Shown here piece by piece: positions 326-38,952 of a stretch of 58,830 nt of DNA. Source of the stretch: Candidatus Doudnabacteria bacterium (GTDB taxonomy: Bacteria > Patescibacteriota > Doudnabacteria > UBA920 > O2-02-FULL-48-8); the NCBI GenBank assembly GCA_039931165.1, contig JBDTSL010000005.1, forward strand, positions 1-58,830, written 5' to 3'. The notes under the pieces were generated by a model. It was given only the letters and a program-made list of their open reading frames with translations. It was not told the origin of the DNA and did no database searches. Position 1 is the first letter of the stretch, and each line of letters opens with the position of its first letter. The position numbers were made by a program, and so were the translations under genes.

Positions 326-354
326 TTGACAAAATCGTCGATTAAGAGTATAAT
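326..354 (+). promoter_or_regulatory. Perfect-consensus sigma70 promoter
   Basis: TTGACA (326-331)-17 nt-TATAAT (349-354), upstream of CDS 468. Confidence 0.8.
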
Positions 355-467
355 GACTAGTTCTGCTCTGCCTCAGCTGAGTTCAGGGTTAGGAACATCG
401 CAACACCGCACATAATACAGCTGGCCTAACGAAGTCTTAGTCCGGCGCCCCAAGGAGGGGTTTCAAA

Positions 468-1724
468 ATGCGTAAATTAGTATTGTCGGTCGTATTCATG
501 TTGACGTCGGTCGGCATCGCTTCGGCGCAAACGCCCGTTGACAGTTGGAAGACTGCGGCGGAATGCGTAGCGGCGCCCGAGGCGCCCTTCTACAGGCCCT
601 CGGTCGTAACTCCCCGCAGGCTCGGCAAAAACGAGATCATCCGCGGGCACCCGACGGGCGGGTGCTTCGAGATGAAGCTGCCGGACCGGATGAACAAACG
701 CGGGTTCGTTCGGATTGAACAAGGACGGGAATTCGTCTACAACTTCACGACGCGGAAAATTCTCCGCCTCGCTGAATGCAACAACGATGTTTTTGAATTC
801 TCTCCCTTCCTCACCAAAGAGGTCGCTCCTGCTCCCGCAATAAAGGGAGACAAGGGGGACACTGGCAAGCAGGGAGACAAAGGCGATAAGGGCGACAAGG
901 GCGAACCGGGTGCTCCGGCAATCCCAACCACCGTTAGCGACGAAACGTCTCCCGCTACGACCAAGCCAATCGTAGGGGTTGGCATCGGGTACGTGTTCGG
1001 GTCCGTCAATACGGACTTCACCTACCCTGACCCCAAGCGCGGCGATGTGCCCCAAAAGCACAAGTTCGCCGCTCCCGTTCTCACCGTACGAGTGGATCAG
1101 TCGGCTCACAAGGGAGCATTCGGCTCCGTGACTGCCTCCTTCCTCGGTAATACCTCGGACCAGCTGTACCAGGACCTGCAAGGGAACTGGCTCAGCAAGA
1201 AGCGCGATTCGGATACCAGCCGCGACAAACTGCTCCAGATCCGCGGCGGATATAAGCTCGCTGTCGGAGATGTGCTCAGCATCGGAGTCTCGCTTGACTT
1301 CGACCGGACGTGCTTCTGCGAAACATACTTCGCGCAGAACACGACCACCGTCACCGAAAGGTCTTTCCAGACCTATGGGGTTGGGGTCGAAGCTTCTGGT
1401 TCGACCAAGAGCGACGACCACCGGCTCACTGTTCGAGCTGGCGGAACACTAGGACTCGGTGGCTCACGAGACAAATGGACCACCCAGCACTACAACGGCG
1501 ACACCAAAACGCCGGCAATTGACTTCCCCAAGGTCACAGACGAGCAGGAGCAAGCCAAGCTCAATCGTCTCGGTGCCGACGTGGACGTTCAGGCGATCGG
1601 TCGTGTCCACGTTTTCGCAAACGTGTCGTGGTCGCACTACAAGTCAGTGCGTCCGACCTCCCACACAGCCCATGAATCGACGTCATCGATGGCGACAATC
1701 GTGGGTGTCAAGGTGAGCTTCTAG
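468..1724 (+). CDS. Secreted protein with a collagen-like G-X-Y linker and a C-terminal beta-barrel-like domain
   Basis: RBS aaggagggg; signal peptide ending ASA; GDKGDTGKQGDKGDKGDKGEPGAP; about 10 amphipathic strands; ends VGVKVSF. Confidence 0.8.
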   Translation: MRKLVLSVVFMLTSVGIASAQTPVDSWKTAAECVAAPEAPFYRPSVVTPRRLGKNEIIRGHPTGGCFEMKLPDRMNKRGFVRIEQGREFVYNFTTRKILRLAECNNDVFEFSPFLTKEVAPAPAIKGDKGDTGKQGDKGDKGDKGEPGAPAIPTTVSDETSPATTKPIVGVGIGYVFGSVNTDFTYPDPKRGDVPQKHKFAAPVLTVRVDQSAHKGAFGSVTASFLGNTSDQLYQDLQGNWLSKKRDSDTSRDKLLQIRGGYKLAVGDVLSIGVSLDFDRTCFCETYFAQNTTTVTERSFQTYGVGVEASGSTKSDDHRLTVRAGGTLGLGGSRDKWTTQHYNGDTKTPAIDFPKVTDEQEQAKLNRLGADVDVQAIGRVHVFANVSWSHYKSVRPTSHTAHESTSSMATIVGVKVSF

Positions 1725-1744
1725 CTCACCTACGCATACAACAA

Positions 1745-1780
1745 AGGCGGATTCCACTCAGTGGAATCCGCCTATTTTTT
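1745..1780 (+). terminator. Rho-independent terminator
   Basis: aggcggattccac-tca-gtggaatccgcct followed by a T run. Confidence 0.85.
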
Positions 1781-1805
1781 ATGCTTATTATTACTATTTA
1801 TTTCT

Positions 1806-2930
1806 TTACAGCCCTACCTGCACAGCCGATACAACTATCCGGTTGGTCGATGTGCCGATCGGCCAGCAGGTGGAAAGATTCAGCAGGTTGGTTGAGCCGG
1901 ATACGAACTGGGCCTGGTCATCGGGCTTATAAATATTGTTGCCTGTGACCTGATAGCGGTAATTATAGACTTTGCCGTCCACGCTGTAGACGTCGACAAA
2001 TACATCGTCGCCGGGTTTGAGATAATTGATCTTGGCGAAAATGCTCTGCATCGGATCGCGTTTCCAGATATAATCCGAAGAATGCCCGGAAACATAGATC
2101 GTACCGACTTCTCCTGGCAAAGCGGTTCCCGGGTAATGGATCACGCCCTTCGTCAGATCGGCTTCAAACTCAGCCGGGTCCTGGGACCAGATCAAAGGAA
2201 CGGTCAGGTTCAGCCGTGGAATAGACAGGCGGCCTGGTTTGGTGTAATCAATGTTGCCGGAGTTGGGCGCTATAACCAATCTCGAATTGTCAGGCAGGGC
2301 ATTGTAGCTGATCCGGTTATTGATCGTGTTCATATCCAGTTTCGGGATATTTTGCTTTTGCGCTTCCGACATCGGTCCCGAGCCCCACAAATTCAATCCA
2401 TTGATGACTTTCTCGCCGTCGGTCATGCCGCTTCCGGAAGAATCCGCGACCATGGGGTTCGTGTGCAAAATAAACTCGTCCATATTGGACAGCCCGTCTT
2501 TATCCATGTCATTATTCGGGTCAAGCAGTTTTCGATCGGAAACAGCGTAAAAATATCCGCTGATCCATGTGTTGTACGGCTGGAGCTGATCACCCAAAAT
2601 TTGCTGGTCTTGAGGCTTGGCAAAGAATCCCTGGAGCTGGGCGGACATTGAGGAAAAATTAAGCGCTATATAAAAGAAAACAAAAGCGCCGATGAAAATG
2701 GCCGAATAAATAAGAATACTTTTTAGGCTGAAACCGATCTTTTGGATCAGGCCTGGTTTTGCCATGAAATTATTGGCCATATTGGTTCTGCCAGGAATAG
2801 CGTGAATAACAGGCTTATGCTGATCAATCAAAATAGGCAAGTCTTCAGGGACGCCACTAAAATGCGGCGAATCGGACGGATCGCCCAGTTTCAGCAACCT
2901 ATGAATTTCTGATGTATTATCTATTATCAT
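1806..2930 (-). CDS. Sortase-family protein with an N-terminal TM and a TSP3-like Ca-binding insert
   Basis: GHSS, LSTCWP and downstream R (His/Cys/Arg triad); DMDKDGLSNMDE...D repeat; one TM helix. Confidence 0.85.
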   Translation of the reverse strand: MIIDNTSEIHRLLKLGDPSDSPHFSGVPEDLPILIDQHKPVIHAIPGRTNMANNFMAKPGLIQKIGFSLKSILIYSAIFIGAFVFFYIALNFSSMSAQLQGFFAKPQDQQILGDQLQPYNTWISGYFYAVSDRKLLDPNNDMDKDGLSNMDEFILHTNPMVADSSGSGMTDGEKVINGLNLWGSGPMSEAQKQNIPKLDMNTINNRISYNALPDNSRLVIAPNSGNIDYTKPGRLSIPRLNLTVPLIWSQDPAEFEADLTKGVIHYPGTALPGEVGTIYVSGHSSDYIWKRDPMQSIFAKINYLKPGDDVFVDVYSVDGKVYNYRYQVTGNNIYKPDDQAQFVSGSTNLLNLSTCWPIGTSTNRIVVSAVQVGL

Positions 2931-3029: not shown

Positions 3030-4205
3030 ATGAAATTAAACTATTATCTGTTTGCTTCGGAGCAAAATAGCTATAAACCCTGGATTTTGACAACCCCGGC
3101 CTTGGTGCTTTTTTGCTTCGTCATCTGGGCCTTGCGCTTGCTTTTGCCCGGTATTTCAATCGCGGCTCCCGGGATAGATCCGCAGGATCTGATGACGAGG
3201 ATCAATGCCGAGAGGACCCAAAGATTTATTCCCGCGCTTATCACCTACAGTAAATTAATTACGGCCGCGACAGGCAAGGCTCAGGACATGATGGCGCGAA
3301 GTTACTTTGCCCACGTCGATCCGGACGGAAATTACGTATGGCCGCGGATCGAGGCTACCGGTTATAAACCTTATCTGACCTTGGGAGAAAATCTGGCAAT
3401 GGATTTTACTTCGGCGTCCGAAATGATGGCCGCGTGGATGAACAGCCCGGGGCACAGGGCGAATATCGAAAATGAAAAATTTGTAGACCAGGGGGTGTCC
3501 ACCATCTCCGGCACGTTTGAGCCGAACCACAATACGATCATCGCCGTCAGCCTTTTCGGCGCGCTTTATAATCCACCGCCGTCTCCGGTTGCCAAAACTT
3601 ACCCGACTCCGGTATATCAAACTCCCAAAATCATCAAACCTAAGCCAACGCCGGCGCTTCCGCCCGCTCCGGCTCCGCCCGAAAAATCAAGTTTAATTAT
3701 TTTCCCGGATATCAAAGTCAACACGACTGTCGTTTCCGGCAAAATATTGGTCAACTTGGATGTGGTCATCGGCGGAAATCCCTCGCTCGTTACATCCCGC
3801 CTCAAAACTCAATCCATAACCTTGGTTGCCGGCAAGCAGCCGGGAGAATTCGTCGGCTCTTTCACCTTTGACCAAACCGAGATCCTGGGCAGCCAGACGG
3901 TTTCGATCGAAGCCCGAGACAAAACCGGAGCCAAACTCGCGCAAGACTTCCGGATACGGATCGATGTTCCGGCTTTATCAGGAGCCGCGCAAGATTCGCT
4001 GGTTCCTATTCCCGTAACCAATGAAGCTGCGATTATCAAGGTGCTGAGGATCATATTCGGGATATTCGGGGCGATCTATGTCATTTTCCTGGTGATTGAC
4101 GCGGTTATCATCCACCGGGCGAAGATCAAAAGGACGGGAATTCATTCCTGGCCCCATCTTTTGGTTTTGTTGCTGATCGCCGCTATCACCCTGCTCGGCA
4201 GGTGA
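3030..4205 (+). CDS. CAP (SCP) domain protein with a Pro-rich linker and C-terminal TM helices
   Basis: INAER...KAQDM...YFAH...GENLA...WMNSPGHRANI. Confidence 0.9.
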   Translation: MKLNYYLFASEQNSYKPWILTTPALVLFCFVIWALRLLLPGISIAAPGIDPQDLMTRINAERTQRFIPALITYSKLITAATGKAQDMMARSYFAHVDPDGNYVWPRIEATGYKPYLTLGENLAMDFTSASEMMAAWMNSPGHRANIENEKFVDQGVSTISGTFEPNHNTIIAVSLFGALYNPPPSPVAKTYPTPVYQTPKIIKPKPTPALPPAPAPPEKSSLIIFPDIKVNTTVVSGKILVNLDVVIGGNPSLVTSRLKTQSITLVAGKQPGEFVGSFTFDQTEILGSQTVSIEARDKTGAKLAQDFRIRIDVPALSGAAQDSLVPIPVTNEAAIIKVLRIIFGIFGAIYVIFLVIDAVIIHRAKIKRTGIHSWPHLLVLLLIAAITLLGR

Positions 4206-7564: not shown

Positions 7565-8542
7565 TTATATTGCGTCTGGTAATAATTTTTTCCACCAGGA
7601 TTCGTTTTTTTGATACCAGTCTATCGTATCTTTGATCCCTTTTTCAAAATCGATCTCCGGTTTCCAGCCAAGGTCTTTCTTGATTTTTGAACAATCGAGC
7701 AAATATCTTTTATCATGCTGGAGCCTGTCTGGAACATAAGTTTTTAAATTTTTATCTTCCCCCAGAATATCCAATATTTTATCGGCAATTTCTTCCACGG
7801 ATTTCTCAACTCCACTGCCAATATTATAGGATTCTCCGACCTTGCCTTTCTGCAAAATCAGATCAATTGCCGCGCAATGATCTTGAACATGCAGCCATTC
7901 ACGTTTATTCTGGCTGGTCTTAAACAAAGGCAAAGATTTGTTCTGGAGTGCATTTGTCGCAAACAGTGGGATTATTTTTTCCGGAAACTGGTAGGGGCCA
8001 TAATTGTTGCTGCAATGACTGATCGTAACAGGTAACTTATATGTATGGAAATAAGCCATTACCTCGTGATTTGCCCCGGCCTTAGAAGCGTTATAAGGGG
8101 TTTTGGGCAAGAACGGATCGGTTTCCTTGAATGCCCTGGTTTCGTCTAATTCCAGATCGCCGAATACCTCACATGTTGAAATATGATGAAAACGCTTAAC
8201 TTTAGCTTGCCTGGCCGCTTCCAAAAGAATCTGTGTCCCCAAAACATTAGTACGGACAAAAATTCCAGGATCCTCAATAGCCCGATCATTATGCGATTCC
8301 GCGGCAAAATTTACTACAACATCAACATCCTTCATTAGGTCTTTGGCCAAATTCAAATCACCTATGTCCCCTTTTATGAATTTATAGCGCGGATTTTGTT
8401 CATACAGTTTTACATTTTCCAGGTTGCCGGCATAGGTCAATTTGTCCAAATTTACAATTTCGCAATCAGGATATTTTTCAAAAAGAAAATGGATAAAATT
8501 GGAGCCAATAAACCCAGCCCCGCCGGTGATAAGATATTTCAT
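7565..8542 (-). CDS. rfbB: dTDP-glucose 4,6-dehydratase
   Basis: TGGAGFIGSNF, LDKLTYAGN, FAAESH, YNASK, REWLHVQDH. Confidence 0.93.
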   Translation of the reverse strand: MKYLITGGAGFIGSNFIHFLFEKYPDCEIVNLDKLTYAGNLENVKLYEQNPRYKFIKGDIGDLNLAKDLMKDVDVVVNFAAESHNDRAIEDPGIFVRTNVLGTQILLEAARQAKVKRFHHISTCEVFGDLELDETRAFKETDPFLPKTPYNASKAGANHEVMAYFHTYKLPVTISHCSNNYGPYQFPEKIIPLFATNALQNKSLPLFKTSQNKREWLHVQDHCAAIDLILQKGKVGESYNIGSGVEKSVEEIADKILDILGEDKNLKTYVPDRLQHDKRYLLDCSKIKKDLGWKPEIDFEKGIKDTIDWYQKNESWWKKLLPDAI

Positions 8543-10164
8543 ATTTTTTGCTTACTAAGATCAAAATTTTCCCATACTACGTACGCTTCTCCTGTGCTTT
8601 GAAATTCGGAATATTCGCCCTCGTCGACAAATGGAATTATTATTTGAACTTTTTTTTGCCCGCTACTGACAATATTAGCCATAACAGCCTTGCCAATATA
8701 GTCATAGTTAGAAATTAAATTTTCTTCTGTATTTACCGTAATATATTTAATGCCTTTCTCTTTCGCTTTCTCACCGAGGTATTGGAATAATTGCTCAGTT
8801 GCGCTTTCCCAATGGATCGTGGCCGGTATTTGAATAGCATCTAAGTGCCAGGCCTTTTCACCGGCATCAGTGTCCGTAATCAACAGATAAATATTGCCGA
8901 TGTGTTTTTGCTTGGATTCAAAAACCTTAACATTATAAACCGGGATTAGAGAATCGGCGAACGGCAATGGTTTCCCTTCGGTGCAATCACCGCTGATTTG
9001 TCCTGGATCCCTATCGAGTTCGGCGTTAGGAGTCGGATCCAAGTAAAACTCCTGTTTATTATCTCGGGTTATAAGAATGCGGAATGAAGCTTGTTCAATC
9101 TCTGATAAATATTTATCAAAGTAAGCCGCTACCACATTATAGGCTGTCAAAAATTGCTTAAGTTCGGAAATAAACAAATTTTCCTTGCGGCTCTGGATAT
9201 CCATTTCTTTTTTTCTTTTACTCAGGGCCTTTTTGTCTTCTATTGTCACAGCTTCACTCATTTGGGTTTCGATGTCTTTTTTTTCCTGAAAATGGGGGAA
9301 TTGCCGGCCTGAAATTTTCCCGGCCAATTCAGATGCTTCATCATAGGTTTTACACACGGAAATTTGTTCTCCCAGATGGACAAATCCTTTCTTAACCAGA
9401 AATAAGCCCAGGAAATGAATTTTCAGTTTTTCTTCATTATCAATTTCATGTTCAAAACAATATTGTAAAAATTCAGGTGTTATATGATTATCATGCTCCT
9501 CCTCAGACCATTCCTGAATAGTAGTTTCTCGGTCCCAATTAGTAAATTCTTTTTTTAAAGCGGCTTTATCAGCATACATGGCCTTGGCTCTTTGAATGTC
9601 TTCAAAAAAACTTTTTGATTCTTCAGGGTCATTTGCTTCTTGAATTTCGGACAGTTTATGCGCCAGCCCATCACTTAAGCCCAAATCTCTTTCCACGTCT
9701 CGTAAGTCACCGTCTCTTTTCAAAAAATGATCAGTCTGGGTATCAAACCAATTATTCCACTCGGTTATCTTTTGTTCGAAGAATTCTTGAGATTTCAGAA
9801 AGTCGTAGAATTCATTCGAAAAAGCTAAAATTGGATTATTTTTTCGCAAATTGCCTAAAAACCTTTCGTTGTTATAATTCTTATCAAGTTTACGCGCAAT
9901 ATCCAATTCGTGCCTTAGTTGGGCTTCAGTGGAATCCAGCTCAAGCTTGATTCGTCCAAAAGGGATATTTTCTTTCTTATTTTCTAAATTCGAACCTTGC
10001 TCAATTCTTTTTTCTAATTCGTCAGCTTTAACTATACTTCCTAGTGGATCGCGGGAATAACCCAGTGTAGCGAGTTCTTCGGAAGGAACATTTTTCAGCC
10101 CATATTTATTTACTAAATCCATAAGAGTTTGGGAGCCTGGATCAAATTTTTCTCGTTCTGCCAT
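8539..10164 (-). CDS. AT-rich hypothetical protein, helical N-terminus and possible GNAT-like C-terminus
   Basis: 541-aa ORF; stop overlaps the rfbB start (ATGA); visibly AT-richer than its neighbours. Confidence 0.75.
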   Translation of the reverse strand: MAEREKFDPGSQTLMDLVNKYGLKNVPSEELATLGYSRDPLGSIVKADELEKRIEQGSNLENKKENIPFGRIKLELDSTEAQLRHELDIARKLDKNYNNERFLGNLRKNNPILAFSNEFYDFLKSQEFFEQKITEWNNWFDTQTDHFLKRDGDLRDVERDLGLSDGLAHKLSEIQEANDPEESKSFFEDIQRAKAMYADKAALKKEFTNWDRETTIQEWSEEEHDNHITPEFLQYCFEHEIDNEEKLKIHFLGLFLVKKGFVHLGEQISVCKTYDEASELAGKISGRQFPHFQEKKDIETQMSEAVTIEDKKALSKRKKEMDIQSRKENLFISELKQFLTAYNVVAAYFDKYLSEIEQASFRILITRDNKQEFYLDPTPNAELDRDPGQISGDCTEGKPLPFADSLIPVYNVKVFESKQKHIGNIYLLITDTDAGEKAWHLDAIQIPATIHWESATEQLFQYLGEKAKEKGIKYITVNTEENLISNYDYIGKAVMANIVSSGQKKVQIIIPFVDEGEYSEFQSTGEAYVVWENFDLSKQKI

Positions 10165-23359: not shown

Positions 23360-25417
23360 ATGAAAAAGACTCTATTTATAGCAATCTCATCAATCCTGAT
23401 TTTCCTCCCTAATGCCCGGTCTTCGGCATCAGGCGTTTTATCTTTGAGCCAAAACAATGTCACATTAAGCCCGGGACAAACCACTACCGTAACCGCATAT
23501 CCGCCAGCCGGGCAAATCGCCAACGTGACCTCCATAACCAATTCCACCGGAGTATCTGCCACTGTTGGCAACAACGTTATCACTATCAACGCCCTAAATT
23601 CTGGCGTTTCCGGCATCTCTCAGATAAGTGTCTGCACCTTTGACAGCACATGCGGCACAATTAACGTCACGGTTGCCAGCGGCTTCAACAATAATTGTTA
23701 TAACTGCAATAATTACAACAATTACGGCCAACTGACTTTTAGCCAAAACAATATCAGTCTTGGCGCTAATCAAACTATGACTGTCAGTGTCTTCAATACA
23801 AACTCCGGTTCCATCTACATTTCCAGCAATTCCAATCCCGGGATAGTCAGTGCTTTTGTTTCCGGCAGTGTGATAAATCTCTCAGGGTTAAGTTATGGAT
23901 CGAGCACGGTCACCGTTTGCGGCTCATTCGGCCAGTGCGGATATTTATACGTAACCGTCAGTTCTTCGTCCGGAGGCTTGCTGAGTATAAGTCCGAGCAG
24001 TCTCAATCTCGCAATCAATCAAACCAGCACGGTTTATGTTTCAGGCACAAACAATGGATCGGTTTACATCTCGAACAATACCAATTCGAATATTGTCACC
24101 GCAAACATAATCGGTTCCGCGATTAACCTGACCGGCATTAATTTCGGCAGCGCCACTCTGACTGTTTGTGCTTCAAATTCTCAATGCGCTTCTCTGTATG
24201 TCTCTGTCAATACTGGCAACAATAATTCCGGCCTGCTCTCATTCAGCCAAAATAACATCAATCTAACGATCAGCCAAACGATGTCAGTTAGTGTTTACAA
24301 CACAAATTTCAGTTCCATCTACATTTCCAGTAATTCCAATTCCGGCGTGGTCACGGCGTACGTTTCCGGCAGCAGTATCAATCTCACAGGTATCAACAAC
24401 GGCTCAAGCACCATTACGGTCTGCAGCTCCAACGCCGCTTGCAACTACTTATATGTTACCGTCGGCGGGTACAATAATAACAACGGCCAGATAAGCCTCA
24501 GCCCGAGCTATGTGAACATGAACATCGGGGATTATTCCAACGTCACGGTCTACAGTACCAACGCGACGAATTTGTATATTTCCAGCAATTCCAATCCCTC
24601 CGCCGTGTCGGCCGTTGTTTCCGGCAACCTGATGAGCCTGCATGCCCTGAATTCCGGCAGCTCGGTTATTTCCGTCTGCTCTTATAATTTCGGACAATGC
24701 GCGAATCTAAGCGTCACAGTCGGCGGTTCGGGCTTCAACAATTTCTCAAATATTACTTTTAGCCAAAATTCCGTTGCTCTCAATACAGGCCAGAGCATGA
24801 CGGTTTCGATTTATTCCGGCAATTCATATACAAACGCAAACTCTTATTACATCTCAAGTAACTCCAATTACTCCGCGGCTTTGGCTACCGTGAACGGCAA
24901 CTCTCTGTTTTTAACCGGACAAAATACCGGAACTTCTACGATTAACGTATGTCAGACCGGTAACGGTTGCGGCACGATTACGGTCACGGTCAATTCAACT
25001 TATCCTAACGGCACCGGCGCGGTTTTGGGCTCAAACGTATATAATAACGGAACGCTGATAAACGACAACGGTACAATTTACATCACTTACAAGAATACCA
25101 AAAGCGCGTTTGCCACCGCGACCGCATTTACCGGGATGGGATTCAGCTTCGGCAACACGATCAATGCTTCAACCGTAAATTTAAATTATTCCGGCTACAC
25201 CATCGGCAGTCCGTTTATCGCCCATCCTTGGGGCAGCTGGCTAAAAAATGGCCAAACAGTTTACTTCGCTGACAGCACCGGTTTGATTCCGATTGCCAGT
25301 ATGAATGATTTCACTGCCAATGGCGGCAGTCTGAACATGGTGGTCAATGCCAATAGCTACGACCTCGCAAGGCCAATTCAACCCGTGATGACACCGAGTG
25401 ATCCAAGGTTAAGATAA
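23360..25417 (+). CDS. Secreted Asn/Ser-rich surface protein with six Ig-like repeats and two C-terminal lineage-type repeats
   Basis: Signal peptide; six ~85-aa units each ending VC-x5/6-C-xxxxV(T/S)V. Confidence 0.85.
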   Translation: MKKTLFIAISSILIFLPNARSSASGVLSLSQNNVTLSPGQTTTVTAYPPAGQIANVTSITNSTGVSATVGNNVITINALNSGVSGISQISVCTFDSTCGTINVTVASGFNNNCYNCNNYNNYGQLTFSQNNISLGANQTMTVSVFNTNSGSIYISSNSNPGIVSAFVSGSVINLSGLSYGSSTVTVCGSFGQCGYLYVTVSSSSGGLLSISPSSLNLAINQTSTVYVSGTNNGSVYISNNTNSNIVTANIIGSAINLTGINFGSATLTVCASNSQCASLYVSVNTGNNNSGLLSFSQNNINLTISQTMSVSVYNTNFSSIYISSNSNSGVVTAYVSGSSINLTGINNGSSTITVCSSNAACNYLYVTVGGYNNNNGQISLSPSYVNMNIGDYSNVTVYSTNATNLYISSNSNPSAVSAVVSGNLMSLHALNSGSSVISVCSYNFGQCANLSVTVGGSGFNNFSNITFSQNSVALNTGQSMTVSIYSGNSYTNANSYYISSNSNYSAALATVNGNSLFLTGQNTGTSTINVCQTGNGCGTITVTVNSTYPNGTGAVLGSNVYNNGTLINDNGTIYITYKNTKSAFATATAFTGMGFSFGNTINASTVNLNYSGYTIGSPFIAHPWGSWLKNGQTVYFADSTGLIPIASMNDFTANGGSLNMVVNANSYDLARPIQPVMTPSDPRLR

Positions 25418-38439: not shown

Positions 38440-38952
38440 CTATTGTCTCAAAGAAACTTTATTTTCCTTACTGCCAAAAAATTGAACGATGATAGTGGTA
38501 TTATTGCGGCTGACCACGGCCAGTCCAGCTTCAGAATAAAAAGGAGAAAGAATGTTTGCTCTGTGAGTCGGGCTGTTCATCCAGGAATTTTCGAGTTCAT
38601 AGGGATCGGAATAACCTTCGGCGAGGTTTTCTCCAGCATAGCTGTAATTGTATCCCAAATTCTTAAACCAGTCCCAGGGCTTGACTCCTCCGGGGCTGAC
38701 ATGGGCGAAATAATTTTTACTGATCATATCTTCGGCTTTGGCGTAAGCCGCAAGGTTCAGAGTAGGGTTCAACGACAAATCAGAAAGGCCGTGTTTTTCA
38801 CGGTCCAGATTAACAAGATTCAGGATTTGTCCGGCTTGCATCGGTACAACCGCAAAACTACCCGACAGAAAAAAGCTTATTACGACCAATAATACGCTAA
38901 AACGCGCTTTGGAGATCATTGTATGGATTTTTATTTTTGTTTCGATAGCCAC
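38440..38952 (-). CDS. CAP domain protein
   Basis: AKAEDM..NYFAH..PWDWF...YAGENLA..WMNSPTHRANIL. Confidence 0.92.
   Translation of the reverse strand: MAIETKIKIHTMISKARFSVLLVVISFFLSGSFAVVPMQAGQILNLVNLDREKHGLSDLSLNPTLNLAAYAKAEDMISKNYFAHVSPGGVKPWDWFKNLGYNYSYAGENLAEGYSDPYELENSWMNSPTHRANILSPFYSEAGLAVVSRNNTTIIVQFFGSKENKVSLRQ

What the first reader, a model, noticed from the sequence alone, without database searches (positions are those of the whole stretch)
468..1724. Collagen-linked, beta-barrel-like secreted protein in a presumed monoderm CPR genome
Seen: signal peptide; a Cys-containing N-terminal domain; about 8 G-X-Y triplets; a P/T linker; then about 10 alternating hydrophobic strands (IVGVGIGY, VLTVRVD, GSVTASF, LQIRGGY, LSIGVSLDF, YGVGVEA, LTVRAGG, LGADVDV, VFANVSW, VGVKVSF) ending in a terminal Phe. 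Established: a C-terminal aromatic residue on the last strand is the BAM signal of outer-membrane barrels, and CPR are generally reported to lack LPS/BAM pathways. The gene is visibly more GC-rich than its neighbours and has its own consensus promoter and terminator. Inference: either a laterally acquired barrel, possibly aimed at a diderm host membrane, or a soluble barrel.
Basis: partly seen in the sequence, partly recalled or inferred. Interest (0 to 1): 0.7.

Follow-up and report, generated by a model that had tools for sequence, protein, structure and literature searches.

The report
Outer-membrane-type barrel protein in a CPR bacterium
A bacterium from a group thought to have only one membrane (Candidatus Doudnabacteria, CPR) carries a conserved, apparently strongly expressed gene for a secreted protein with a fast-evolving head, a short collagen-like stalk and a tail predicted to fold like a Gram-negative outer-membrane barrel, which raises the question of which membrane it sits in and how it gets there.

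Summary
ORF 468..1724 encodes 418 aa: a signal peptide, a 3-Cys head, 8 G-X-Y triplets, a P/T linker and a C-terminal domain. AlphaFold2 models that domain with pLDDT above 90 as ten long antiparallel strands. Its only fold matches are outer-membrane barrels (OmpT/Pla, OpcA, NalP, OmpA). Each strand carries a 9-10 residue alternating hydrophobic stretch at the end near the termini. Turns are short on that side and loops are long on the other, and the protein ends G-x-x-V-x-F.

The contig is Doudnabacteria-like. The gene lies at one conserved locus (rml genes, DUF5656, CAP, sortase, barrel gene, CLIPPER protein) in at least 7 loci. It is therefore inherited, not recently acquired. Its high GC and GC3 are shared by all 7 orthologues and remain unexplained.

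About 20 protein clusters carry the barrel, and no virus does. Heads diverge strongly while the barrel is conserved. The same head occurs in about 115 clusters, mostly fused to collagen plus a C-terminal TM helix.

Best reading: the barrel is the lipid-embedded anchor of a stalked, abundant surface protein. Which membrane holds it is unresolved. I favour the cell's own membrane over a cryptic outer layer or a host membrane. I could not test for BamA in the whole genome.

The parts
326..354 (+). sigma-70-type promoter, TTGACA-17 nt-TATAAT (12/12)
   Evidence: The same TTGACA-17-TAxAAT layout lies about 110-130 nt upstream of the orthologues in L001, L002 and L003.
355..467 (+). long 5' untranslated leader with a 5'-proximal hairpin and a perfect Shine-Dalgarno (AAGGAGG, 452-458)
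   Evidence: Sequence. The fold is not better than shuffles (z=-1.27). The 4-sequence alignment fold is weak. The layout is shared by the orthologues.
468..527 (+). Sec signal peptide, aa 1-20, A-S-A|Q cleavage site; no lipobox
   Evidence: Read from the translation. Homologues carry equivalent N-termini.
528..833 (+). head domain, aa 21-122, with three conserved Cys (33, 66, 104); no fold match among solved structures
   Evidence: The AF2 model of the domain alone has pLDDT 92.8. Foldseek against PDB gives best E=1.3. The domain is found in about 115 representative clusters.
846..917 (+). collagen-like spacer, 8 G-X-Y triplets rich in K-G-D/E
   Evidence: pLDDT is below 50 in the monomer model. 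Several orthologues have a Pro-rich stretch here instead.
918..968 (+). Pro/Thr-rich linker, aa 151-167
   Evidence: translation
969..1721 (+). 10-stranded OMP-type beta-barrel domain, aa 168-418, ending G-V-K-V-S-F
   Evidence: AF2 pLDDT above 90. Foldseek top hits are OmpT/Pla, OpcA, NalP and OmpA. 12 of 19 family members give sub-threshold PF13505 hits.
1745..1780 (+). intrinsic terminator: 13-bp stem (8 G-C pairs), 3-nt loop, T-run. It can also act for the convergent sortase gene.
1806..2930 (-). sortase gene, the conserved neighbour of the barrel gene in all loci examined
   Evidence: Pfam PF04203, E=6e-19. Synteny.

Best explanation
The gene encodes a Sec-exported, three-module envelope protein of a Candidatus Doudnabacteria-type (CPR) bacterium. 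The modules are a fast-diverging cysteine-containing head, an extended collagen or polyproline-type spacer, and a conserved C-terminal 10-stranded beta-barrel of the outer-membrane-protein type.

Shown or predicted: the barrel has the anatomy of a lipid-embedded anchor. It has a hydrophobic belt, short turns on the side of the termini and long polar loops on the other side.

Inferred: the spacer is about 45-70 residues, which I estimate at roughly 13-20 nm if extended. It would hold the head away from the membrane on the short-turn side of the barrel. This is the layout of the many relatives in which the same head and collagen are followed by a single C-terminal transmembrane helix.

Inferred, and the reading I favour: after Sec export the barrel folds without BAM into the cell's own (only) membrane. 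The head and stalk project outward through the wall. The result is an abundant stalked surface protein, S-layer-like or adhesin-like, that contacts the environment or a host.

Shown: the gene is inherited vertically at a fixed cell-envelope locus. It is monocistronic, with consensus expression signals.
For: - Fold: the AF2 model has pLDDT 88.4 overall and above 90 across the barrel. All significant PDB matches are OM barrels. The 10-stranded omptins and OpcA rank highest (E=6e-8 to 5e-5, TM-score up to 0.62 on the target). The viral library returns only phage-encoded OMP barrels.
- Belt and topology: every strand has 4-6 alternating hydrophobic residues over 9-13 positions, next to the short turns at 210-216, 266-270, 312-320 and 377-380. 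The opposite halves are polar.
- Sequence link to OMPs: 12 of 19 members hit PF13505 and 4 of 19 hit PF03797, all below threshold.
- Head-stalk-anchor logic: about 115 clusters carry the head. Those read end in collagen plus a hydrophobic segment. About 20 clusters carry the barrel, behind divergent heads and Pro-rich or collagen spacers.
- Vertical inheritance: the same locus occurs in the window, L001/L004, L002, L003, L006, L008 and the P0003 contig.
- Expression signals.
- CPR envelope and BAM-free insertion: PMC6744442; 10.1101/2021.05.31.446380; PMC13018214 (BamA and SonA fold into liposomes unaided).
Against: - No beta-barrel is known to reside in a bacterial cytoplasmic membrane. Insertion from outside would have to move about 130 polar loop residues across an energised membrane.
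- The structure is a prediction, and I could not inspect coordinates. The belt was inferred from strand parity and not measured on the model.
- High expression is inferred only from signals. GC3 is not shared by the ribosomal genes in the window.
- I could not scan a whole Doudnabacteria genome for BamA, Skp, SurA, LptD or other barrels.
- Eight triplets are short for a stable triple helix, and the collagen is not conserved among orthologues.
- The CxC pair is lost jointly in 5 of 19 members. If it forms a disulfide, the loop side would be extracytoplasmic, which fits an outer layer better.
Confidence: 0.4

Rival explanations
1. Cryptic outer layer. Doudnabacteria keep a lipid-containing or toga-like outer sheath. 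The barrel sits in it in the classical orientation, with termini facing inward. The head plus stalk reach back to the wall or inner membrane as a tether of fixed length. This would be an analogue of OmpM/SlpA (SLH, coiled coil, barrel) or of OmpA.
For: - Canonical OMP topology and a beta-signal-like C-terminus.
- The head-stalk-barrel order equals that of OmpM (10.1101/2022.09.22.508938; PMC10628300).
- The gene sits in a wall-polysaccharide locus with rml genes and glycosyltransferases.
- The jointly lost CxC pair on the loop side would fit an oxidising compartment.
- Strong expression signals suit a major envelope protein.
Against: - Comparative genomics finds no OM markers in CPR: no PilQ or TonB system, and OmpM/SLH lost (PMC6744442; 10.1101/2021.05.31.446380).
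- The locus carries a sortase, and the Patescibacteria type IV secretion system is reported as homologous to the monoderm conjugation machinery (title of PMC12102498).
- Only one barrel gene occurs per locus, and there is no paralogue in 58.8 kb.
- A wall-binding head should be conserved, yet it is the most divergent part, while the supposedly exposed loops are the most conserved.
Confidence: 0.22
2. Host-directed barrel. The protein is released and its barrel inserts into the membrane of a host cell, serving as an attachment point or a lesion for an episymbiotic lifestyle.
For: - CPR are widely regarded as episymbionts (PMC12102498 abstract).
- A small barrel can fold into bilayers unaided (PMC13018214).
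- The head is fast-evolving, as expected for a protein at an interface.
Against: - Nothing attaches the protein to the producer: there is no LPXTG, no lipobox and no TM helix.
- With the barrel in the host, the head would point back toward the producer. That is the reverse of the TM-anchored relatives.
- I know of no system in which a secreted monomeric OMP-type barrel inserts into another cell's membrane from outside.
- The host of Doudnabacteria is unknown.
Confidence: 0.1
3. Not a membrane protein. The barrel is soluble, or assembles into a protein lattice that buries its hydrophobic belt. The conserved polar end would be a binding or catalytic site, as in omptins, PagP or PagL.
For: - The family's most conserved motifs (GDVPQKH, KKRDSDTSRDK, CxCExYxAQN, WTxQxY, DFPKV, STRP..AxE) lie in the long loops and the polar half of the barrel. 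In enzymatic barrels this is where active sites sit.
- The best fold hits are the omptin proteases.
Against: - A continuous belt of alternating V/I/L/F/A on all ten strands is not expected on a soluble monomer.
- There is no Pfam omptin, PagP or PagL match, and no PDB sequence match even at E=10.
- All fold matches are integral membrane barrels.
Confidence: 0.12
4. The gene is a recent import from a diderm bacterium, or the contig is mis-binned and really comes from a diderm organism.
For: The gene is the compositional outlier of the window.
Against: - The window carries the housekeeping genes of one small genome: Mur ligase, PBP, MraW, FtsW, rpsB, tsf, rplJ, RF1 and an aspartyl/asparaginyl-type tRNA synthetase.
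- Neighbouring proteins are 50-78% identical and collinear with Doudnabacteria MAGs.
- The genome-collection scan hit only two loci, both Doudnabacteria. All seven loci with readable flanks share the Doudnabacteria synteny.
- Every orthologue shows the same GC excess, although their sequences have diverged to 29-51% identity.
Confidence: 0.03

Closest known systems
Small monomeric outer-membrane barrels of the OMP_b-brl superfamily (Pfam PF13505; OmpX, OmpA N-domain, Opa), and the 10-stranded OpcA and omptins (OmpT, Pla)
   Same: - Predicted closed antiparallel barrel of 10 long strands.
- Hydrophobic belt with aromatic residues at its edges.
- Short turns on the terminal side and long loops opposite.
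- G-x-x-hydrophobic-x-aromatic last strand.
- These are the best Foldseek matches, and 12 of 19 members give weak PF13505 hits.
   Different: - Sequence similarity is below Pfam's threshold and undetectable against PDB sequences.
- The organism belongs to a lineage regarded as lacking an outer membrane and BAM.
- The loops are the conserved part, not the variable part.
- There is an N-terminal head and a collagen/PPII spacer.
- No omptin catalytic signature was detected.
OmpM / SlpA outer-membrane tethers of diderm Terrabacteria (SLH domain, coiled-coil stalk, C-terminal barrel)
   Same: - Same order of modules: N-terminal globular domain, elongated stalk, C-terminal barrel.
- Both are probably major envelope proteins.
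- CPR fall within Terrabacteria, the clade in which OmpM is the proposed ancestral tether (10.1101/2021.05.31.446380).
   Different: - No SLH domain.
- The stalk is collagen or polyproline, not a coiled coil.
- The barrel has 10 strands and is not a large trimeric porin.
- The head is hypervariable.
Trimeric and classical autotransporter adhesins (type Vc / Va)
   Same: - Signal peptide, then head, stalk and a C-terminal barrel anchor.
- 4 of 19 members give weak hits to the Autotransporter beta-domain, and NalP is among the fold matches.
   Different: - There is no 12-stranded barrel with a lumen-filling helix, and no 4-strand-per-chain YadA anchor.
- A 10-stranded barrel is unlikely to pass a passenger domain (inference).
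Bacterial collagen-like surface proteins (Scl1/Scl2, Lcl, BclA)
   Same: - A G-X-Y run rich in charged K-G-D/E triplets, placed between a globular head and a cell anchor.
- Weak NCBIfam hits to SclA and Lcl.
   Different: - Only 8 triplets.
- No LPXTG anchor.
- The anchor is a beta-barrel.
- The collagen is replaced by Pro-rich spacers in many orthologues.
Stalked S-layer proteins anchored in the cytoplasmic membrane (archaeal type, such as SlaB or tetrabrachion; comparison from my own knowledge)
   Same: - A variable outer domain held on a stalk above a single membrane by a C-terminal anchor.
- A monocistronic gene with strong expression signals.
   Different: - Those anchors are single TM helices, as in the TM-anchored relatives of this head. 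None is a beta-barrel.
- Lattice formation was not tested here.

Membership tests
OMP beta-barrel superfamily (PF13505 OMP_b-brl and relatives) | Closed antiparallel barrel with an even number of strands | tested here: met
   The AF2 model has ten long strands with pLDDT above 90. All significant Foldseek hits are OM barrels. This rests on a prediction only, and I could not inspect coordinates.
OMP beta-barrel superfamily (PF13505 OMP_b-brl and relatives) | Lipid-facing hydrophobic belt about 9-10 residues per strand, with alternating polarity | tested here: met
   Strand-parity hydrophobicity averaged over 19 homologues shows such a belt on each strand. This is a sequence-based proxy, not a measurement on the model surface.
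OMP beta-barrel superfamily (PF13505 OMP_b-brl and relatives) | N- and C-termini and short turns on one side, long loops on the other | tested here: met
   Turns of 2-9 residues at 210-216, 266-270, 312-320 and 377-380. Loops of about 20-35 residues on the opposite side.
OMP beta-barrel superfamily (PF13505 OMP_b-brl and relatives) | C-terminal beta-signal (G-x-x-hydrophobic-x-aromatic) with a terminal aromatic residue | tested here: inconclusive
   The window protein ends G-V-K-V-S-F. In the family 13 of 19 have F or W at that position, but only 4 of 19 end there. Most add G-K, G-R or similar.
OMP beta-barrel superfamily (PF13505 OMP_b-brl and relatives) | Sequence match to the family model above the curated threshold | tested here: not met
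   The window protein has no hit. 12 of 19 relatives hit PF13505 with best E=4.7e-6. The bit scores listed (14.7-24.4) are below the 28.7-bit cut-off.
OMP beta-barrel superfamily (PF13505 OMP_b-brl and relatives) | Residence in an outer membrane and BAM-dependent assembly | not testable with these tools
   No whole-genome scan was possible. No Omp85/POTRA hit appeared among about 43 window proteins scanned. The literature reports no OM markers in CPR (PMC6744442).
Omptin proteases (OmpT/Pla) | 10-stranded barrel protruding above the membrane | tested here: met
   Top Foldseek hits, E=6e-8 to 1e-6, TM-score about 0.5 on the target.
Omptin proteases (OmpT/Pla) | Omptin sequence family and its catalytic Asp/Asp and Asp/His pairs | tested here: not met
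   No Pfam or NCBIfam omptin hit. 10-12% identity in the structural alignments. Catalytic residues were not mapped.
OmpM/SlpA tether | N-terminal SLH domain | tested here: not met
   No SLH hit in the window protein or in 10 relatives. The head has no match in PDB.
OmpM/SlpA tether | Coiled-coil stalk and a large trimeric porin barrel | tested here: not met
   The stalk is G-X-Y or Pro-rich. The barrel has 10 strands.
Autotransporters (type Va/Vc) | 12-stranded barrel with a lumenal linker helix, or a trimeric 4-strand anchor | tested here: not met
   The model has ten strands, and DSSP assigns no helix longer than three residues within the barrel domain. Only 4 of 19 members give weak PF03797 hits.
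Bacterial collagen-like proteins | Uninterrupted G-X-Y repeats able to form a triple helix | tested here: inconclusive
   Eight triplets. The Pfam Collagen hit of 21.8 bits is below the 27.2-bit cut-off. Trimer formation was not modelled.
Sortase substrates | C-terminal LPXTG-type motif, hydrophobic segment and basic tail | tested here: not met
   The protein ends in the barrel strand ...IVGVKVSF, with no such signal, although a sortase gene is adjacent.

The most novel reading that the evidence does not exclude
A whole CPR lineage (Doudnabacteria) keeps one conserved, abundantly expressed outer-membrane-type beta-barrel even though it lacks BAM and an outer membrane. One reading is that the barrel is a living relic of the diderm ancestry of Terrabacteria, reused as an anchor. 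The other is that it is the first natural beta-barrel that assembles without BAM into a bacterial cytoplasmic membrane, possibly as the foot of the so far unidentified CPR S-layer.
Probability: 0.3. Interest if true: 0.9.

Novelty: new variant of a known kind. Interest (0 to 1): 0.72.

Why it matters
Beta-barrel membrane proteins, BamA and OM tethers are used as genomic markers to decide whether an uncultured lineage has one membrane or two. CPR are counted as OM-less in current scenarios of the diderm-to-monoderm transition.

A conserved OMP-type barrel fused to a stalk and head in a CPR lineage would therefore be informative whichever way it resolves:
- If a lipid outer layer exists, the envelope model for part of the CPR is wrong.
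- If it does not, this would be a natural case of BAM-independent barrel assembly into a single membrane.
- Either way it offers a concrete candidate for the major surface or S-layer protein of these cells, and for their contact with hosts.

It is also a compact, expressible protein, so both readings can be tested directly.

Tried and rejected
1. **Recent lateral transfer as the cause of the GC excess.** Rejected. All 7 orthologues have GC 58-64% and GC3 67-83%, against neighbours at 41-53% (one CAP-position gene at 55%) and 41-64%.
2. **Codon bias of highly expressed genes as the cause.** Not supported. GC3 of rplJ, L25 and tsf is average, and only rpsB is mildly raised.
3. **Structured 5' leader.** The single-sequence fold is not better than shuffles (z=-1.27). 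The 4-sequence consensus is weak (-0.5 kcal/mol).
4. **Sequence link to solved structures.** The family profile against PDB sequences gave nothing at E up to 10.
5. **Fold of the head.** It is modelled confidently but has no PDB match, best E=1.3.
6. **Phage origin.** Three IMG/VR scans, with the head, the head alignment and the barrel alignment, found no relative. One further attempt failed for lack of conserved columns.
7. **Known domains in the alternative heads.** None was found in Pfam for 10 relatives.
8. **Paralogues or other barrels in the window.** None by tblastn or by the family HMM. None of the unannotated ORFs showed an obvious barrel-like pattern when read by eye.
9. **Metagenome scan.** It added only two loci, both 42% identical like P0002.
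10. **Exact-sequence look-up of the window protein.** It is not on record.
11. **Burkholderia collagen-like adhesins.** They are lipoproteins and not barrel-anchored.
Full report
**1. The observation**

ORF 468..1724 (+) is intact and encodes 418 aa.
- a Sec signal peptide ending A-S-A|Q (aa 1-20);
- a domain with Cys33, Cys66 and Cys104 (aa 21-122);
- exactly eight G-X-Y triplets (aa 127-150, nt 846-917);
- a Pro/Thr linker;
- ten amphipathic hydrophobic strings;
- a terminal Phe.

Pfam sees only a sub-threshold Collagen match (21.8 bits against 27.2). NCBIfam gives weak hits to the collagen parts of SclA and Lcl.

The gene is the compositional outlier of the window. Its GC is 58.3% against 45.7%. 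It ranks first of 49 genes for GC (z=4.3) and for GC3 (0.706, z=3.1).

The expression signals are close to ideal:
- a perfect TTGACA-17-TATAAT at 326-354;
- an AAGGAGG ribosome-binding site at 452-458, after a leader of about 105 nt;
- a 13-bp hairpin with a T-run at 1745-1780.

The 314-aa antisense ORF at 477..1421 is an ordinary by-product of high GC.

**2. The fold**

I built an alignment from the few full-length relatives, trimmed barrel domains and head-only relatives (A2). With it, AlphaFold2 gave pLDDT 88.4 overall. The head and the C-terminal domain scored above 90. Only the signal peptide and the collagen run scored low.

The C-terminal domain consists of ten long antiparallel strands of 9-23 residues.

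Foldseek against PDB returned 66 matches at E<=0.001, and all of the 50 best listed are integral outer-membrane barrels. The 10-stranded omptins OmpT/Pla rank first (E=6e-8 to 1e-6). OpcA follows (TM-score 0.62 on the target), then NalP, FadL and OmpA. Against viral structures, only phage-encoded OMP barrels matched.

I could not access coordinates. I therefore tested the belt from strand parity, averaged over 19 homologues.
- Every strand has 4-6 alternating hydrophobic residues spanning 9-13 positions.
- This stretch always lies at the end next to the short turns (210-216, 266-270, 312-320, 377-380), which is the side of both termini.
- The other half of each strand and the long loops are polar.

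This is the classical OMP topology. The belt length is what I would expect for a thin bilayer (my estimate).

At the sequence level, 12 of 19 family members hit PF13505 (OMP_b-brl; best E=4.7e-6) and 4 hit the Autotransporter beta-domain, all below threshold. A family profile finds nothing among PDB sequences.

**3. The organism**

The window is an ordinary chromosomal stretch of a small genome. It carries Mur ligase, PBP, MraW, FtsW, Lgt, an aspartyl/asparaginyl-type tRNA synthetase (tRNA-synt_2), ScpA/B, rplJ with its leader, rpsB, tsf, L25, RF1 and five tRNAs.

Its left 10 kb is collinear with a Candidatus Doudnabacteria MAG (MFER01000016). The gene order is barrel gene, sortase, CAP-domain protein, DUF5656, then the dTDP-rhamnose genes. 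Neighbouring proteins are 51-78% identical.

The scan of one genome per species returned only two loci, both labelled Candidatus Doudnabacteria. The literature held here treats CPR as lacking an outer membrane:
- no PilQ or TonB system, and enrichment in sortase (PMC6744442);
- loss of porins and SLH domains in the Chloroflexi-CPR-Dormibacterota clade (10.1101/2021.05.31.446380).

**4. Not a recent import**

An exhaustive HMMER pass over 1.84 billion representatives found the barrel domain in only about 20 clusters. Every one whose context I could read lies in the same locus: rml genes, NTP-transferase, DUF5656, CAP, sortase, barrel gene, a large CLIPPER-repeat protein, a protein of about 211 aa, and an epimerase. 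The one exception is L007, a 1.5-kb contig that holds only the gene itself. This holds even for members only 29-37% identical to the window protein.

There is one copy per locus and no paralogue in the window.

The GC excess is shared by all seven orthologues. Their GC is 58-64% and GC3 is 67-83%. Their neighbours have GC 41-53% (one CAP-position gene reaches 55%) and GC3 41-64%. A mark of transfer would have decayed over such divergence, so the bias is being maintained.

I could not explain the bias. Ribosomal genes in the window do not share it. Two observations hint at a recombination-prone cassette, and I suggest GC-biased gene conversion as one untested explanation. The first is the strong divergence of the head. 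The second is that the monocistronic gene is inverted relative to the sortase in the window and L001, compared with L002, L006 and L008.

**5. Modularity**

The head (aa 23-122) occurs in about 115 representative clusters. In nearly all of those I read, it is followed by collagen-like repeats and then a Gly/Ala-rich hydrophobic segment with a basic tail. That is a single-pass C-terminal membrane anchor.

Modelled alone, the head reaches pLDDT 92.8 but has no match in PDB (best E=1.3).

The barrel-bearing proteins carry heads that look different. By eye they share the same three-Cys skeleton (C...Y-P...C-x-x-M...W-V...C-G/N-N). One member (P0003) has no head at all. Their spacers are either G-X-Y runs or Pro-rich stretches of about 45-70 residues. 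If extended, I estimate these at roughly 13-20 nm.

The generic design is therefore a variable head, an extended spacer and a membrane anchor. The barrel takes the place that a TM helix holds in the relatives.

**6. How it most likely works**

*Shown or predicted:* the protein is exported, the barrel has the anatomy of a lipid-embedded anchor, the gene is conserved at one locus, and it carries strong expression signals.

*Inferred:* the spacer leaves the barrel on the short-turn side, so the head is held away from the membrane on that side.

The conservation pattern is inverted relative to classical OMPs. The long loops and polar half of the barrel carry the family's most conserved motifs (GDVPQKH, KKRDSDTSRDK, CxCExYxAQN, WTxQxY, DFPKV, STRP..AxE). 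The head is the fast-evolving part. This fits a head that faces the outside world and a barrel 'top' that faces a constant partner or compartment.

I therefore favour (confidence about 0.4) anchoring in the cell's own membrane, with head and stalk crossing the wall. Folding would occur without BAM. Unaided folding of BamA and SonA into liposomes provides a precedent (PMC13018214). The consensus promoter, long leader, perfect SD, strong terminator and monocistronic layout recall S-layer and ompA-type genes (comparison from my own knowledge). The same layout recurs upstream of three orthologues.

*Rivals:*
- A cryptic lipid-containing or toga-like outer layer, with the protein acting as an OmpM-like tether (0.22).
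- Insertion into a host membrane (0.10).
- A non-membrane barrel whose conserved polar end is a binding or catalytic site (0.12).
- Mis-binning or recent transfer (0.03).

The jointly lost CxC pair above the belt (absent in 5 of 19 members) would, if it is a disulfide, argue for an extracytoplasmic loop side. That would favour the outer-layer rival.

**7. Comparison with known systems**

It works like an OMP-type barrel anchor. By fold, belt and topology it belongs to the OMP barrel superfamily, but it does not reach any family's sequence threshold.

It is not a member of these families:
- omptins: no sequence match;
- OmpM/SlpA: no SLH domain, no coiled coil, and only 10 strands;
- autotransporters: the wrong barrel type;
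- sortase substrates: no sorting signal.

The head-collagen-barrel architecture and its occurrence in a CPR lineage appear undescribed in the papers I could search.

**8. Verdict**

- The OMP-type barrel in a CPR genome is confirmed, as a prediction.
- Lateral acquisition is not supported, and a soluble barrel is disfavoured.
- Targeting of a host membrane remains possible but unsupported.

Novelty: a new variant of a known kind. Interest: 0.72.

The key untested point is whether Doudnabacteria genomes encode any Omp85-family protein or other barrels.

Noticed in passing
window 468-1724; L001 10001-11278; L002 955-2529; L003 5404-6741; L006 2241-3758; L007 28-1329; L008 8001-9389: Every orthologue of the barrel gene is markedly richer in GC (58-64%) and GC3 (67-83%) than its neighbours, although the proteins have diverged to 29-51% identity. 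The bias is therefore maintained and not inherited from a donor. The cause is unknown. Candidates are GC-biased gene conversion at a recombination hot spot, selection on the mRNA, or exchange within a GC-rich gene pool.
   Followed up: partly
window 468-2930, compared with L002 8-2529, L006 844-3758 and L008 6584-9389: The monocistronic barrel gene is convergent with the sortase gene in the window and L001. It is co-oriented with and downstream of the sortase in L002, L006 and L008. This is a single-gene inversion at an otherwise collinear locus.
   Followed up: partly
barrel domain aa 185-199, 241-255, 282-292, 334-356 and 393-403 (window nt about 1020-1680): The most conserved motifs of the family lie in the long loops and the polar half of the barrel, while the N-terminal head is hyper-divergent. 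This is the opposite of the usual OMP pattern. A CxC pair (Cys282, Cys284) is lost jointly in 5 of 19 members.
   Followed up: partly
proteins P0005, P0007, P0009, P0012, P0036 (head-collagen-TM relatives; alignment A7): Several TM-anchored relatives of the head share a short C-terminal tail, G-P-G-G-N-T-x-P-A-F, after the hydrophobic segment. It might be an unrecognised sorting or processing signal.
   Followed up: no
window 355-467; L001 9889-10000; L002 810-954; L003 5309-5404: All four orthologues examined have a consensus-like -35/-10 promoter about 110-130 nt upstream, a hairpin near the predicted 5' end of the leader, and a strong Shine-Dalgarno. The hairpin is not statistically supported (z=-1.27, with weak covariation).
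   Followed up: partly
window 7565-10164 (-): This is a low-GC patch. The epimerase gene has GC 39.8%. A 541-aa acidic, Lys/Glu-rich protein with no Pfam match has GC 37.8% and GC3 0.34. Both are the lowest values in the window, and the 541-aa gene has no counterpart in the syntenic Doudnabacteria locus L001.
   Followed up: no
window 23360-25417 (+): A 685-aa secreted protein is built of about seven Asn/Ser/Thr-rich repeats of about 85 aa, each with a Cys pair (weak Big_2 and pilus-N hits). It is preceded by another secreted 357-aa protein without family matches. These are probably further surface proteins.
   Followed up: no
window 3030-4205 (+) and 38440-38952 (-): Two CAP/YkwD-family (cysteine-rich secretory protein) genes are present. 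The first carries a Pro-rich spacer and a C-terminal TM segment, and is a conserved neighbour of the sortase in all Doudnabacteria loci.
   Followed up: no
window 477-1421 (-): A 314-aa ORF lies antisense to the barrel gene. It is most likely a stop-codon-poor artefact of the high GC content and not a gene.
   Followed up: no
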